IMG/VR virus record: IMGVR_UViG_3300029722_000071
Coordinates: 1 to 9,516 of that record
Length of the DNA: 9,516 nucleotides
Strand: one strand, 5' to 3'
Source: a virus
Taxonomy: Duplodnaviria > Heunggongvirae > Uroviricota > Caudoviricetes
This document shows positions 20-5,745 of the stretch, piece by piece. The notes beneath the pieces are model-generated. The model was not told the DNA's origin. It did not search any database and worked only from the letters and a program-made list of their open reading frames with translations. Positions within the stretch are counted from its first letter, which is position 1; each line of letters starts with the position of its first letter. A program made the position numbers and the translations under genes.

Positions 20-95
20 TGGTGGCCCTTGCTGGATTTGAACCAGCGACCTGGCGATTATGAGTCGCTCGCTCTCACCACTGAGCTAAAGGGCC
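20..95 (-). tRNA. tRNA with CAU anticodon, tRNA-Ile2 (lysidine-type, ileX/ileY/ileZ-like); elongator tRNA-Met not excluded
   Basis: Reverse complement of 20..95 is GGCCCTTTAGCTCAGTGGTGAGAGCGAGCGACTCATAATCGCCAGGTCGCTGGTTCAAATCCAGCAAGGGCCACCA (76 nt): 7-bp acceptor stem, D arm GCTC/GAGC, anticodon loop CTCATAA (anticodon CAT), T arm with GGTTCAAATCC, encoded CCA. Overall pattern matches E. coli tRNA-Ile2 as I recall it. Confidence 0.8.
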
Positions 96-2694: not shown

Positions 2695-3759
2695 TTATGC
2701 TTTCCACTTCAGAACACCCGAATTTCTCGCGTGCATTAAAAAACGAATCAGCAACAACAGCTGACTGCCGTGTTTCTCTTCAAAATCTTTTACTCCGGCG
2801 TGTAGTTCGTTATGGCATTTACGGCACAGCGGAATAACAAACAAATCGTCAGCCTTTGTTCCCATCCCTCCCAGTCCATGACCAATGATGTGATGCGGAT
2901 CATCTGCCTGATTGCCACACGTCATGCATTTCTGCGTTTTTACCCAGCGCGTGTATACAGGCATCTCTTCCCGTTGTGGTTTCTGGCGCTGGAGATACTG
3001 AGCCGGAGATTCCGGATCAACGGCAATGCTGACCACCGTCTTTTCCTGTGGTGGGTTCTGTTGCTGGTGCTGGTGGACGTGAGGCGGTAGCGCAATATTT
3101 TTTGTGCGCTGCTTCAGTATGCTGGTGGCTGTCTGTTCTCCCGGTACGATGTCGCTCTCACTGTATACGGAGCGGATTTTTTTCACCGGTAATCCCAGTG
3201 AACGACGCAATACAGACTCCGGAAGCGCATCAGCCACCTGATTGCAGACCGCCCACCAGGATAATTCGGCCAGCGATAACTCCCTCTCCTGCGTACCGCT
3301 GATTGCGTGACGGATGACGTCAATCATCCATGCTGACAGGTTTTGATGAGCAAGTTGCCCGAGTGATTCGGATGTCTGGTCACGCAGCTGGTTGTCGCAG
3401 TGCCAGCACAACACCATCGCGCCGGTACCGTAACGATGTATGACGATTTCACTGTGATGATAGTCACCATGAGGCCACTGGCAGGATTTGACATGACGCA
3501 ACAGCCAGTCAGACAGTGCCCCAGCACCACCAGCAGCACGAATCACCCGATCATCGCTGAAAAATGGCAGTAATGATTTATCCTCCGCCAGCGGCTGGCG
3601 AACAGCAGGGACGACTCCGGACGGCAGATTACGCATGCTTTTCGGTTCCGGCTCCACCAGTACCCGGGTATTGTGGAATACCGGCATGGATTCACGGCCC
3701 GGCTTAACGATCACCAGCCCGAGTTCCGGTACCAGAACAGGTCGAAGTAATACCCGCAC
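2695..3759 (-). CDS. DUF968-family (YdfU-like) protein with C-terminal HNH-type zinc-finger nuclease motif
   Basis: 354-aa ORF; C-terminus CMTCGNQADDPHHIIGHGLGG...PLCRKCHNELH has the Cys pairs and His residues of an HNH zinc finger. GTG start at 3759 has a GGAGG Shine-Dalgarno 4 nt upstream. Same position relative to hok as ydfU in the K-12 Qin prophage. Confidence 0.75.
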   Translation of the reverse strand: MRVLLRPVLVPELGLVIVKPGRESMPVFHNTRVLVEPEPKSMRNLPSGVVPAVRQPLAEDKSLLPFFSDDRVIRAAGGAGALSDWLLRHVKSCQWPHGDYHHSEIVIHRYGTGAMVLCWHCDNQLRDQTSESLGQLAHQNLSAWMIDVIRHAISGTQERELSLAELSWWAVCNQVADALPESVLRRSLGLPVKKIRSVYSESDIVPGEQTATSILKQRTKNIALPPHVHQHQQQNPPQEKTVVSIAVDPESPAQYLQRQKPQREEMPVYTRWVKTQKCMTCGNQADDPHHIIGHGLGGMGTKADDLFVIPLCRKCHNELHAGVKDFEEKHGSQLLLLIRFLMHARNSGVLKWKA

Positions 3760-4110: not shown

Positions 4111-4138
4111 GAAAAAACAAAACCCGCCGAAGCGGGTT
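4111..4138 (-). terminator. Rho-independent terminator of the hok transcript
   Basis: Plus 4121..4138 aacccgc-cgaa-gcgggtt (7-bp stem, UUCG tetraloop on the minus strand) preceded by gaaaaaacaa, giving a U-rich tail on the minus-strand RNA. An additional 9-bp hairpin ggcgaggga/tccctcgcc lies at 4179..4200, where an fbi-like hok 3-prime element would be expected. Confidence 0.75.
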
Positions 4139-4206
4139 AAGTGCGGGTGCGTTGAGGATGCCTGACTCATCAGAGGTGGCGAGGGATTTCTCCCTCGCCA
4201 GGTCTC

Positions 4207-4362
4207 TTACTCCTCAGGTTCGTAAGCTGTGAAGACAGCGACCTCCGTCTGGCCGGTTCGGATTCGTACCTCGCAGAGGTCTTTCCTCGTTACCAGTGCC
4301 GTCACAATGACGGTAATACAGATGACGATCAGGGCGACTAACATCGCCTTTTGCTGCTTCAT
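4207..4362 (-). CDS. hokD: Hok/Gef-family type I toxin (51 aa), HokD/RelF-type
   Basis: Product MKQQKAMLVALIVICITVIVTALVTRKDLCEVRIRTGQTEVAVFTAYEPEE is nearly identical to E. coli K-12 HokD/RelF as I recall it. ATG at 4362 with AAGGAG Shine-Dalgarno; the track ORF extends in-frame to an upstream ATG at 4419. Confidence 0.9.
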   Translation of the reverse strand: MKQQKAMLVALIVICITVIVTALVTRKDLCEVRIRTGQTEVAVFTAYEPEE

Positions 4363-4409
4363 AGCCTGCTTCTCCTTGCCTTTCGGCGTGTAAGAGGCTA
4401 ACCTACATG

Positions 4410-4486
4410 TGACTAGCATGAAATTGGCCTCAGATTAATGTTAAGCGTCCTGCAAGACGCATAATGTTAACTGGGGCTTTTCTCTG
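4410..4486 (+). ncRNA. candidate Sok-like antisense RNA (approximate boundaries)
   Basis: Plus-strand region antisense to the hok leader around the upstream mok-like ATG: long-range stem gcctcag (4427..4433) / ctggggc (4471..4477) enclosing hairpin gcgtc-ctgcaa-gacgc (4445..4460), followed by uuuucucu. Position matches where sok lies in plasmid R1 hok/sok. Promoter not confidently located. Confidence 0.35.
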
Positions 4487-4535
4487 TCTGCCTTACGGTG
4501 GCATGCCCGAGGCAGACAGCCTCAAGCACCCGCAG

Positions 4536-4566
4536 CAATTCTACTTAACTCTCGCTTTACCGCAAA
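4536..4566 (-). promoter_or_regulatory. candidate sigma70 promoter of the hok mRNA
   Basis: On the minus strand: -35 TTGCGG (plus 4560..4565), 16-bp spacer, -10 TAGAAT (plus 4538..4543), about 7 nt before a 5-prime sequence GGUGCUUGAGGCUGUCUGCC that resembles the R1 hok mRNA 5-prime end as I recall it. Confidence 0.4.
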
Positions 4567-4577
4567 CCGTTTTTACC

Positions 4578-4599
4578 CGATATGGGAATTCCCATATCG
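4578..4599. promoter_or_regulatory. 22-bp perfect palindrome just upstream of the hok promoter; candidate protein-binding site
   Basis: cgatatgggaattcccatatcg is a perfect inverted repeat (11-bp arms, no spacer), about 12 bp upstream of the candidate -35. Not followed by a U-run on either strand, so not a terminator. Confidence 0.3.
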
Positions 4600-4607
4600 T
4601 AATGAAT

Positions 4608-4712
4608 TCAGTTCCCTAGTCGATCCATCAAAAACACAACCAGGCAGTAAACACCCACAACAGCAATAACAGCCAGCGCACCTTCCATTGCCAGTGAGAT
4701 ATCATCCGACAC
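4608..4712 (-). CDS. candidate small hydrophobic protein (34 aa) missing from the ORF track
   Basis: Minus strand reads AAAGGAGGGAAT-GTG TCG GAT GAT ATC ... TGA, giving MSDDISLAMEGALAVIAVVGVYCLVVFLMDRLGN: a strong Shine-Dalgarno 4 nt before GTG and one predicted transmembrane helix. Start codon uncertain (in-frame ATG at 4688 would give 26 aa). Confidence 0.3.
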   Translation of the reverse strand: MSDDISLAMEGALAVIAVVGVYCLVVFLMDRLGN

Positions 4713-4827: not shown

Positions 4828-5745
4828 TCATTGGCGTACCTCCTTCGGCGGTTCTGGTAGCGGCATCCAGTGGGTTACTTTCGATGCCGGTTCTTCCCCA
4901 TTGTCAGTAACTGCCCACCATTTGTTTCTCGAACAATCGTAATACCCTTCGAAGGTATCGCACTCAGTCCAGCCGTAAGACTTACCCCAACACCAAACAT
5001 ACTGTTTATCGTTCGGCATTCGCTCACTACAGCTTATCCAACCATCCGGAGTTACCGGAGAGTTGCCCGATAGTGCATTCTGCTCCAGTGATGCTTTTAC
5101 AAACCACGCTGCCTGAACTATAACGCCATGAATCCAGCGCAAATCAGCATCGCGATCTTTCTTTTTCATCTTTTCGCCACTTAAGGCCTTGCTTATGTGG
5201 CTGCGTACCAGGTCTTCATGCAATTCCTTCGCCTCCTCAATGGTGAAACCACCAGGCAGAAGAGCCGGAGTTACCGGAGAGCTGGTTGACGCTTCCGGGA
5301 TTTCCCGAAAATTATTGGTTGACGAATTCTTGCTTTCCCGAAAGTTTCCGGACTGAAGCATGGCGGTGCGGCAGGCGTTCCATATTTCGGCAGCAATATC
5401 GCGCTCGCTATCGGTTAATTTGTACGTGGAAACATAGCCAGAGAGCATTTCTACGTTTTCCGGAGTTGCTTCTTCCGGCACTACCGGCGCTGGCGGGGCG
5501 GCAAATAGATATCCGCCAAAGTCAGGAAGCTCTCCAATGGCCTGTACGAACTTTTGTTTGCCTACGTCAACTCCTAATGGGTAATGAGCTATAATCTTTG
5601 CCACCGGCTCTGCTTCCAGCGATACCAGTGCAATTCGTGCCAGTTCTTCCGCTTCTTCTGCTGGCAGTACAACGTTGCTACCCGGTCCGTATGTTTCGCG
5701 CCACTGCTTGATTGTCAGCAGTCGCCCTTTGGTAATAGTGATCAT
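4828..5745 (-). CDS. DUF551 domain-containing phage protein (305 aa)
   Basis: C-terminus DGWISCSERMPNDKQYVWCWGKSYGWTECDTFEGYY...VTHWMPLPEPPK matches the DUF551 signature as I recall it. ATG at 5745 overlaps the upstream stop (ATGA). Confidence 0.8.
   Translation of the reverse strand: MITITKGRLLTIKQWRETYGPGSNVVLPAEEAEELARIALVSLEAEPVAKIIAHYPLGVDVGKQKFVQAIGELPDFGGYLFAAPPAPVVPEEATPENVEMLSGYVSTYKLTDSERDIAAEIWNACRTAMLQSGNFRESKNSSTNNFREIPEASTSSPVTPALLPGGFTIEEAKELHEDLVRSHISKALSGEKMKKKDRDADLRWIHGVIVQAAWFVKASLEQNALSGNSPVTPDGWISCSERMPNDKQYVWCWGKSYGWTECDTFEGYYDCSRNKWWAVTDNGEEPASKVTHWMPLPEPPKEVRQ
5046..5062. repeat. 17-bp perfect direct repeat, copy 1, inside the DUF551 gene
   Basis: ccggagttaccggagag at 5046..5062 and again at 5265..5281, 219 bp apart (in frame); both copies encode the S-P-V-T-P peptide. 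Confidence 0.7.
5265..5281. repeat. 17-bp perfect direct repeat, copy 2, inside the DUF551 gene
   Basis: Identical to 5046..5062. Confidence 0.7.

What the first reader, a model, noticed from the sequence alone, without database searches (positions are those of the whole stretch)
4111..4566. Complete hok/sok-type locus with a HokD-identical toxin but no relBE
In E. coli K-12 the hokD (relF) gene is the last gene of the relB-relE-hokD operon in the Qin prophage. Here the same toxin is preceded by what looks like a canonical hok leader (a 5-prime stem-loop, a mok-like upstream start, a region able to encode an antisense Sok-like RNA, its own promoter and a UUCG-loop terminator) and there is no relBE. 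This would be a functional stand-alone version of a locus that is considered decayed in K-12.
Basis: partly seen in the sequence, partly recalled or inferred. Interest (0 to 1): 0.45.

Follow-up and report, generated by a model that had tools for sequence, protein, structure and literature searches.

The report
Ordinary prophage hok/sok toxin-antitoxin locus
This is a complete copy of the well-known hok/sok RNA-controlled toxin-antitoxin cassette sitting in an E. coli lambda-like prophage; it is real and probably active, but the same cassette is in more than half of complete E. coli genomes and a phage version has already been characterised, so it is ordinary.

Summary
- a hok promoter;
- a 169-nt leader that matches Rfam RF01794 at 117.6 bits (gathering score 59);
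- an in-frame mok start 57 nt upstream of hok;
- a 51-aa Hok/Gef toxin (Pfam PF01848);
- a 3' stem-loop, the fbi box and a UUCG-loop terminator;
- on the plus strand, a Sok-like antisense gene at about 4411-4483.

Folding reproduces the R1 mechanism. tac pairs with fbi in the full-length mRNA. When the 3' end is removed, tac pairs with ucb and the mok Shine-Dalgarno (SD) pairs with dcb. The window has no RelB or RelE.

One correction: the toxin is 49/51 identical to K-12 HokD, not identical.

In K-12, homology starts only 14 nt upstream of the hok ATG, so relBE replaced the leader there.

It is not novel. The leader occurs in 3002 of 5426 complete E. coli genomes, against 1167 with the relE-hokD junction. 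Phage 933W has carried mokW/hokW annotation in its GenBank record. The 88-91% identical hokW-sokW of Sp5 was shown experimentally in 2021 to be a type I TA that aids phage release. Function here is inferred, not shown.

The parts
4538..4565 (-). Putative hok promoter: -35 TTGCGG (4565-4560), 16-nt spacer, -10 TAGAAT (4543-4538); +1 is G at 4531.
   Evidence: Read from the sequence. It lies directly upstream of position 1 of the Rfam leader model. The -10 hexamer and the start align with those of hokW and phage Evi. The -35 is too weak to pass the generic scan. It has not been mapped experimentally here.
4113..4531 (-). Full-length hok mRNA, about 415 nt.
   Evidence: The 5' end coincides with the start of the RF01794 model and the 3' end with the intrinsic terminator. 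MFE -180.1 kcal/mol, z -7.9. On 33 aligned loci the structure is 86.8% paired, against 35-45% when the partners are slid, and 39 pairs show changes on both sides against 12-21 in the slid controls.
4520..4531 (-). tac element (GGGUGCUUGAGG) at the mRNA 5' end.
   Evidence: It pairs with fbi in both the MFE and centroid structures of the full-length RNA. It pairs with ucb once the 3' end is removed. In the first 30 nt it forms a -18.8 kcal/mol hairpin with the sequence immediately downstream.
4357..4531 (-). hok leader: 5' hairpin, ucb, Sok-target hairpin, mok SD and AUG, dcb, hok SD and AUG.
   Evidence: Rfam RF01794 117.6 bits, E 6e-27. The blocks are conserved with the R1-type leader.
4473..4479 (-). 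ucb / anti-SD box (AAGCCCC).
   Evidence: Invariant AGCCC core in 33/33 loci. It pairs with the mok SD in the full-length fold and with tac in the truncated fold.
4428..4431 (-). mok Shine-Dalgarno (GAGG).
   Evidence: It lies 8 nt upstream of the mok AUG. It is sequestered by ucb in the full-length fold and re-paired with dcb (CCUC, 4394-4397) in the truncated fold. It lies under the predicted Sok RNA.
4207..4419 (-). mok reading frame: 70 codons, in frame with hok and containing it.
   Evidence: The length and the 57-nt offset match the R1-type locus. PHROG 251 'MokW-like host killing', E 1.9e-32.
4207..4362 (-). hok toxin gene, 51 aa: MKQQKAMLVALIVICITVIVTALVTRKDLCEVRIRTGQTEVAVFTAYEPEE.
   Evidence: Pfam PF01848 82.7 bits. 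Identity is 96% to K-12 HokD, 88% to HokW of an Stx2 phage and 45% to R1 Hok. PGAP names the identical gene hokD.
4221..4224 (-). UACG motif at the Tyr47 codon, a candidate TadA A-to-I editing site (Tyr to Cys).
   Evidence: TACG is invariant in 33/33 aligned loci. Editing of the equivalent Tyr in K-12 hokC, hokD and hokE is reported in PMC5630033. Editing of this copy has not been tested.
4178..4199 (-). 3' stem-loop that would cap the processed (truncated) mRNA.
   Evidence: A 10-bp helix in the MFE structure. It is helix 18, with 4 pairs changed on both sides and 85.9% of cells paired.
4145..4157 (-). fbi element (CCUCAACGCACCC), complementary to tac.
   Evidence: 12 bp with tac in the MFE and centroid structures. 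Helix 1 is 96.4% paired across 33 loci and has two covarying pairs (G-C to A-U). K-12 hokD retains it even though tac is gone.
4111..4138 (-). Intrinsic terminator of hok mRNA (UUCG tetraloop followed by a U run).
4376..4404 (+). Putative sok promoter: -35 TTGCCT (4376-4381), 17-nt spacer, -10 TAACCT (4399-4404).
   Evidence: Read from the sequence. In alignment A2 it is positionally equivalent to TTGCGC-17 nt-TATCCT of the R1-type locus. That those R1 hexamers are the mapped Sok promoter is my own knowledge. Not tested here.
4411..4483 (+). Predicted Sok antisense RNA, about 73 nt: a single-stranded 5' tail, then a long terminator hairpin and a U tract.
   Evidence: Fold -29.2 kcal/mol, z -5.6. 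It is fully complementary to the mok SD and AUG. The hairpin arms covary across loci (helix 4, 5 pairs changed on both sides). The hairpin is about 20 nt longer than in R1. The ends are inferred, not mapped.

Best explanation
This is a complete hok/sok (hok-mok-sok) type I toxin-antitoxin cassette carried as a moron in the nin region of an E. coli lambdoid prophage, of the HokD/HokW subgroup.

Proposed mechanism, by homology with plasmid R1 and with hokW-sokW:
1. A weak promoter makes a roughly 415-nt hok mRNA.
2. While the transcript is nascent, the 5' tac element is held in a local hairpin.
3. In the full-length RNA, tac pairs with the 3' fbi box and the mok Shine-Dalgarno is held by the ucb box. 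The RNA is then neither translated nor bound by Sok.
4. Slow 3' trimming removes fbi. tac then captures ucb, and the mok SD moves to the dcb stem. mok translation can now start, and hok translation is coupled to it.
5. As long as the short-lived Sok RNA (about 73 nt, plus strand) is made, it pairs across the mok start region and the duplex is destroyed.
6. If Sok synthesis stops, for example on prophage induction, loss of the element or transcription shut-off by an infecting phage, the stable processed hok mRNA is translated and the 51-aa Hok peptide damages the inner membrane.

Shown here, in silico: all the sequence elements, their homology, and the alternative pairings. Inferred: transcription of both RNAs, 3' processing, toxicity, and the biological role. 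The most likely roles are help with lysis and phage release, prophage stabilisation, or exclusion of other phages.
For: - Rfam leader model: 117.6 bits against a gathering score of 59.
- Pfam HOK_GEF 82.7 bits; PHROG 'MokW-like host killing', E 1.9e-32.
- The leader aligns block by block with an R1-type locus and with phage hokW.
- Full-length fold: tac-fbi closure and ucb-mok SD pairing, z -7.9.
- 3'-truncated folds switch to tac-ucb and mok SD-dcb, as the R1 model is described in PMC9841398.
- Nascent 5' hairpin of -18.8 kcal/mol.
- Covariation over 33 loci from Escherichia, Shigella, Kluyvera, Citrobacter, Erwinia and others: 86.8% paired against 35-45% in slid controls, and 39 against 12-21 pairs changed on both sides.
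- Sok hairpin with U tract, z -5.6.
- Context is a lambdoid nin region: replication genes, then DUF551, hok, DUF968, RusA, a Q-like gene, a methylase and tRNAs.
- The relative hokW-sokW (Hok 88% identical; leader about 88%) was shown experimentally to be a toxin/antisense pair. It is activated on mitomycin C induction and doubles phage release (PMC8621323).
- K-12 HokD (96% identical) is toxic when expressed (bioRxiv 10.1101/2025.08.07.668861).
Against: - There are no expression data for this copy.
- Both promoters are weak matches to consensus (3/6 in the hok -35; 3/6 in the sok -10), and the generic promoter scan found neither.
- Chromosomal hok loci tested earlier (hokA, hokB, hokC) did not mediate post-segregational killing (Pedersen and Gerdes 1999, as cited).
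- The folded structure was derived from this same sequence, which inflates the slide-0 figures.
- The tac-fbi helix is so conserved that only 2 of its 12 pairs covary.
- The characterised hokW sits in a different phage region (next to ea genes) and lacks this terminator hairpin, so its role need not transfer.
Confidence: 0.85

Rival explanations
1. The cassette is structurally intact but physiologically silent. hok mRNA is made at a negligible level, is never processed into the translatable form, or the unedited Tyr47 peptide is weakly toxic. The locus would then persist only because it hitch-hikes on prophages.
For: Earlier work found that chromosomal hokA, hokB and hokC loci neither killed after loss nor responded to rifampicin, and hokA/C/D/E were called inactive (cited). 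Both promoters are weak. Decayed copies exist among the relatives: L012 has lost tac, and L069 has a frameshifted hok.
Against: Every regulatory box, including those with no coding role (tac, fbi, ucb, the 3' stem-loop), is conserved with compensatory changes across genera, which argues for selection on the RNA switch. The close relative hokW-sokW is active from its native prophage. HokD is toxic on expression.
Confidence: 0.12
2. A decaying remnant, like K-12 hokD: a toxin ORF with leftover flanks but without working control elements.
For: K-12 hokD shows that such remnants exist, and it keeps fbi and the terminator as vestiges.
Against: The whole Rfam model is matched end to end, with a higher score than an R1-type plasmid locus gives (117.6 against 87.2 bits). 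The mok ATG and SD, ucb, dcb and tac are all intact. No frameshift or stop is present.
Confidence: 0.02
3. The 3' UTR (4117-4198) doubles as an IsrK-like Hfq-binding sRNA that regulates the downstream anti-termination genes.
For: A full-length but sub-threshold match to Rfam isrK: 27.8 bits against a gathering score of 50, E 6e-4 on 701 nt.
Against: The score is below the curated threshold. IsrK lies downstream of antQ in Gifsy-1, not upstream of Q, and has been traced to an ASH-domain gene. The resemblance is two hairpins plus a terminator. No Gifsy match was found by blastn.
Confidence: 0.01

Closest known systems
hokW-sokW (mokW/hokW) of Stx2 phages Sp5 / 933W
   Same: A lambdoid-phage hok/sok cassette. 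The toxin is 51 aa and 88% identical. The leader is about 88% identical and has the same extended Sok hairpin, a mok frame of the same length, and the same tac, ucb, dcb and fbi boxes. It is annotated mokW/hokW in 933W and was shown experimentally to be a type I TA.
   Different: The toxin C-terminus differs (FVDYESEK against FTAYEPEE). In the Stx2 phage the cassette lies beside ea-type early genes, not in the nin region. The Stx2-phage copy lacks the UUCG terminator hairpin after fbi.
relB-relE-hokD (relF) operon of the K-12 Qin prophage
   Same: The toxin is 96% identical. The SD, coding region, 3' stem-loop, fbi and terminator are 96.6% identical over 265 nt. The downstream neighbour is also a DUF968 (ydfU-like) gene followed by a Q-like gene.
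   Different: K-12 lacks everything upstream of -14: no hok promoter, tac, ucb, mok or sok, and no RF01794 hit. relBE sits there instead. The window has no relBE. E. ruysiae L011 matches the Qin downstream region at 98.8% over 3 kb yet keeps the intact leader. The K-12 form is therefore the derived one.
hok/sok (parB) of plasmid R1 and IncF relatives
   Same: The architecture and regulatory logic are the same. The Rfam model hits both. mok is 70 codons, in frame, with its start 57 nt upstream of hok. The tac/fbi, ucb and dcb pairings are reproduced.
   Different: Hok identity is only 45%. The Sok hairpin here is about 20 nt longer. The tac/fbi sequences differ in a compensatory way (GGGUGC/GCACCC against GGCGC/GCGCC). 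The carrier is a prophage, not a plasmid.
Chromosomal hokA/hokB/hokC/hokE loci of E. coli
   Same: Same family. The Tyr codon within a TACG motif is shared with hokC/D/E.
   Different: They are separate subfamilies at fixed chromosomal sites, several of them disrupted by IS elements in K-12 (my own knowledge of Pedersen and Gerdes 1999). I did not compare them in detail here.

Membership tests
[quoted passage not shown] | Small (about 50 aa) Hok/Gef-family membrane toxin ORF. | tested here: met
   Pfam PF01848 82.7 bits against a cutoff of 22; 96% identity to HokD and 45% to R1 Hok.
[quoted passage not shown] | Conserved structured hok mRNA leader, which contains the Sok target. | tested here: met
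   RF01794 117.6 bits against a gathering score of 59, with the full model matched, on the hok strand. The orientation of the model was checked on an R1-type locus.
[quoted passage not shown] | mok reading frame that starts upstream of hok and overlaps it, with its own SD. | tested here: met
   ATG at 4419 with GAGG 8 nt upstream; a 70-codon ORF. The start is positionally conserved in 29/33 loci.
[quoted passage not shown] | cis-encoded antisense Sok RNA with its own promoter and terminator, complementary to the mok translation-initiation region. | tested here: inconclusive
   The sequence features are present. The promoter hexamers are positionally equivalent to those of the R1-type locus. 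A hairpin with a U tract folds with z -5.6. The hairpin covaries across loci. Transcription itself cannot be tested with these tools.
[quoted passage not shown] | Long-range tac-fbi pairing that closes the full-length mRNA. | tested here: met
   12 bp in the MFE and centroid structures. The helix is 96.4% paired in 33 loci, with 2 compensatory pairs. In silico only.
[quoted passage not shown] | Refolding after 3' truncation: tac-ucb and mok SD-dcb stems. | tested here: met
   Four of the five 3' truncations tested (ends at 4160-4175) switch to exactly these pairings. The truncation to 4156, which keeps four bases of fbi, keeps the closed fold. The model is as described in PMC9841398. In silico only.
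[quoted passage not shown] | 3' exonucleolytic processing, RNase III cleavage of the duplex, killing when Sok decays. | not testable with these tools
   This needs Northern blots, a rifampicin chase and viability assays. It has been shown for R1, and partly for hokW-sokW.
relBE-hokD operon (K-12 type) | relB and relE immediately upstream, with hokD as the third gene and no leader of its own. | tested here: not met
   There is no tblastn hit to RelB or RelE in the window. The leader is present instead.

The most novel reading that the evidence does not exclude
The HokD-type cassette in the nin region could be a timed lysis or abortive-infection accessory of the prophage. In this reading its toxicity is gated twice: by loss of Sok on induction or superinfection, and by TadA A-to-I editing of the invariant UACG at Tyr47. 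Editing would create the second cysteine needed for a disulfide-bonded, fully toxic Hok. The K-12 relBE-hokD operon would then be a secondary capture of this toxin by a type II system, through one recombination 14 nt upstream of the hok ATG.
Probability: 0.2. Interest if true: 0.3.

Novelty: already known. Interest (0 to 1): 0.1.

Why it matters
It matters little as a discovery. The kind is known: the 933W GenBank record annotates mokW/hokW, and hokW-sokW was characterised functionally in 2021 (PMC8621323). A 2025-26 survey catalogued about 44,000 Hok homologues and found them enriched in prophages.

Three practical points are useful:
- PGAP labels such genes 'hokD' and annotates nothing over the leader, mok or sok. 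Complete and K-12-type truncated loci therefore look the same in annotation.
- The Rfam 'sok' model reports the hok strand.
- In E. coli the complete form outnumbers the relBE-fused K-12 form by about 2.5 to 1, so K-12 is the atypical case.

Tried and rejected
- I looked for a separate Rfam 'hok' family. There is none. Only RF01794 applies, and it is in hok-sense orientation.
- The generic sigma-70 scan found neither promoter. I placed them by alignment to R1-type and hokW loci instead.
- The sub-threshold isrK hit on the 3' UTR looked like a possible link to the Gifsy-1 IsrK/AntQ circuit. I rejected it as probably generic. IsrK lies downstream of antQ, another origin has been proposed for it, and blastn gave no Gifsy match.
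- I considered that an in-frame mok might be unusual. It is not: the R1-type locus is also in frame. Among relatives the frame varies (16/33 in frame) while the position is fixed.
- I first tried to read L002 in the script sandbox before its file had been written. This had no consequence.
- I did not use the protein database searches or structure prediction, because the family assignment was already unambiguous.

Full report
**What is in the sequence**

On the minus strand between about 4566 and 4111 lies a compact cassette.
- A 51-aa ORF at 4362-4207 encodes MKQQKAMLVALIVICITVIVTALVTRKDLCEVRIRTGQTEVAVFTAYEPEE. It matches Pfam HOK_GEF at 82.7 bits against a cutoff of 22.
- An in-frame ATG at 4419 extends this ORF to 70 codons.
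- Rfam's only family for this system, RF01794 'sok', matches 4531..4357 on the minus strand over the whole model at 117.6 bits (gathering score 59, E 6e-27).
- A UUCG-loop hairpin followed by a U run terminates the unit at 4138-4111.
- tblastn with K-12 RelB and RelE finds nothing in the window.

The one factual error is 'HokD-identical'. The toxin is 49/51 identical to K-12 HokD, with I9V and L16I.

**A caveat on the Rfam test**

The RF01794 consensus ends in the hok Shine-Dalgarno and AUG. On an IncFII plasmid that encodes the exact R1 Hok protein, with hok on the plus strand at 501-656, the model hits the plus strand at 332-503. The model therefore describes the hok leader, which contains the Sok target. 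It does not describe the Sok strand. The hit proves an R1-type leader. It does not by itself show an antisense transcript. The K-12 Qin region gives no RF01794 hit.

**Anatomy (coordinates read)**

| Element | Window coordinates | Strand |
|---|---|---|
| hok promoter: -35 TTGCGG, 16-nt spacer, -10 TAGAAT | 4565-4560 and 4543-4538 | minus |
| hok mRNA +1 (G) | 4531 | minus |
| tac (GGGUGCUUGAGG) | 4531-4520 | minus |
| ucb (AAGCCCC) | 4479-4473 | minus |
| mok SD (GAGG) | 4431-4428 | minus |
| mok AUG | 4419-4417 | minus |
| dcb (CCUC) | 4397-4394 | minus |
| hok SD (AGGAG) | 4376-4372 | minus |
| hok AUG | 4362-4360 | minus |
| 3' stem-loop | 4199-4178 | minus |
| fbi (CCUCAACGCACCC) | 4157-4145 | minus |
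| sok promoter: -35 TTGCCT, 17-nt spacer, -10 TAACCT | 4376-4381 and 4399-4404 | plus |
| predicted Sok RNA | about 4411 to 4483 | plus |

- The sok hexamers sit at the positions of TTGCGC and TATCCT in the R1-type locus.
- The transcript from about 4411 would have a single-stranded 5' tail, a long hairpin and a U tract ending near 4483. It folds at -29.2 kcal/mol with z -5.6. It is complementary to the mok SD and start codon.
- The Sok hairpin is about 20 nt longer than in R1.

**Does it behave like the R1 switch?**

The 415-nt mRNA folds at -180.1 kcal/mol (z -7.9). In that fold the first 12 nt pair with the fbi box and the mok SD pairs with ucb. I then removed the 3' end.
- With the 3' end at any of 4160, 4165, 4170 or 4175, the minimum-energy fold switches. 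tac pairs with ucb and the mok SD pairs with dcb.
- A truncation to 4156, which keeps four bases of fbi, keeps the closed fold.
- The first 30 nt alone form a -18.8 kcal/mol hairpin that sequesters tac.

These are the metastable, closed full-length and open truncated states described for R1 hok mRNA (PMC9841398).

I aligned 33 full-length loci from Escherichia species, Shigella, Kluyvera, Pseudocitrobacter, Citrobacter, Erwinia and an R1-type plasmid. On that alignment:
- the structure is 86.8% paired, against 35-45% with slid partners;
- 39 pairs change on both sides, against 12-21 in the slid controls;
- the tac-fbi helix is 96.4% paired, with two G-C to A-U covariations.

The structure was derived from this same sequence, which favours it in that control. 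All of this is in silico.

**Relation to K-12**

Aligned with relB-relE-hokD, the window matches only from 14 nt upstream of the hok ATG through the coding region, 3' stem-loop, fbi and terminator. That stretch is 96.6% identical over 265 nt. Upstream of it, K-12 has the 3' end of relE. The breakpoint is the same in every comparison.

E. ruysiae locus L011 matches the Qin region downstream of hokD at 98.8% over 3 kb. It nevertheless has the full leader and a toxin identical to K-12 HokD. K-12 keeps an fbi box that has no partner. The K-12 arrangement is therefore the derived one.

**How common, and is it known?**

- The 204-nt promoter-plus-leader occurs in 3002 of 5426 complete E. coli genomes, with up to 8 copies per genome. 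RefSeq annotates no feature over it.
- The K-12 relE-hokD junction occurs in 1167 genomes.
- The window is 99.86% identical over its whole length to a chromosomal prophage of strain DETEC-S792. There PGAP calls the gene hokD.
- The gene order there is replication genes, DUF551, a 34-aa ORF, hok, an ORF of unknown function (PHROG 1212), DUF968, RusA, a Q-like DUF1133 gene, a methylase and tRNAs. This is a lambdoid nin region.
- About 100 phage records carry the cassette. They include 933W, annotated mokW/hokW, and Rac-SA53, annotated mok/hok.
- PHROG 251 is named 'MokW-like host killing'.
- hokW-sokW of Sp5 was shown to be a toxin/antisense pair. SokW disappears and HokW appears after mitomycin C in a RecA-dependent way, and deletion halves phage release (PMC8621323). 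I equate Sp5 hokW with the copies in Stx2 phage I and 933W by their shared annotation and length; this is an inference.
- A 2025-26 survey found Hok enriched in prophages and HokD toxic on expression.

**Verdict**

The locus is a real, complete and very probably functional hok/sok cassette. It is a routine member of a known, already characterised kind. The main uncertainty is physiological activity, since earlier work called several chromosomal hok loci inactive. Only expression and genetic tests can settle that.

Noticed in passing
window 4578-4599: A perfect 22-bp palindrome, CGATATGGGAATTCCCATATCG, lies 12 nt upstream of the hok -35 and just after the stop of the upstream small ORF. It lies outside the cassette shared with Stx2-phage hokW, whose homology begins at about 4575. 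No U run follows it on either strand, so it is not a canonical terminator. It could be a protein-binding site.
   Followed up: no
window 4608-4712 (minus): A 34-aa GTG-start ORF, MSDDISLAMEGALAVIAVVGVYCLVVFLMDRLGN, has one hydrophobic helix and a strong SD. PGAP annotates it as hypothetical, and it has no Pfam or PHROG match. It is a small membrane peptide of unknown function directly upstream of hok/sok.
   Followed up: partly
window 4117-4198 (minus): The hok 3' UTR (3' stem-loop, fbi and terminator) gives a full-length but sub-threshold match to Rfam isrK: 27.8 bits against a gathering score of 50, E 6e-4. It is probably a generic resemblance of two hairpins plus a terminator, because the genomic position and the proposed origin of IsrK differ.
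   Followed up: partly
window 4357-4531; L003 332-503: Rfam RF01794 is named 'sok antitoxin' but is modelled on the hok-sense strand and ends at the hok AUG. Strand calls from this family are therefore the opposite of the Sok gene.
   Followed up: yes
window 4221-4224 (minus); alignment A3: The TACG at the Tyr47 codon, which is the TadA A-to-I editing motif reported for K-12 hokC/D/E, is invariant in all 33 aligned hok loci, including the R1-type plasmid copy.
   Followed up: partly
alignment A3 (33 loci): The mok start codon keeps its position, 56-58 nt upstream of the hok ATG, in 29/33 loci. It is in frame with hok in only 16/33. This fits mok acting through translational coupling rather than through its peptide.
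   Followed up: yes
L002 5289 (K-12) against window 4376; L011: The relBE-hokD junction is a single sharp breakpoint 14 nt upstream of the hok ATG. The fusion also occurs in Shigella flexneri, a Kluyvera species and an unnamed enterobacterium (L013, L014, L030, L035), and in degraded form in L059 and L067.
   Followed up: partly
window 4828-5745 (minus): An uninterrupted 305-aa ORF has a C-terminal DUF551 domain. In the 99.86%-identical genome, PGAP annotates the same stretch as two 'partial' DUF551 pseudogenes. This may be an in-frame fusion of two genes or an annotation artefact.
   Followed up: no
L012 about 2836-3252; L069: Decayed relatives exist. L012 (E. coli ECMA0423) has lost the tac region of the leader, and L069 (S. 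flexneri) has a frameshifted hok.
   Followed up: no
window 20-95 (minus): A tRNA with a CAU anticodon is called tRNA-Met by ARAGORN and tRNA-Ile by PGAP in the identical genome. It is the first of the tRNA cluster downstream of the Q-like gene that is typical of lambdoid and Stx-type phages.
   Followed up: no
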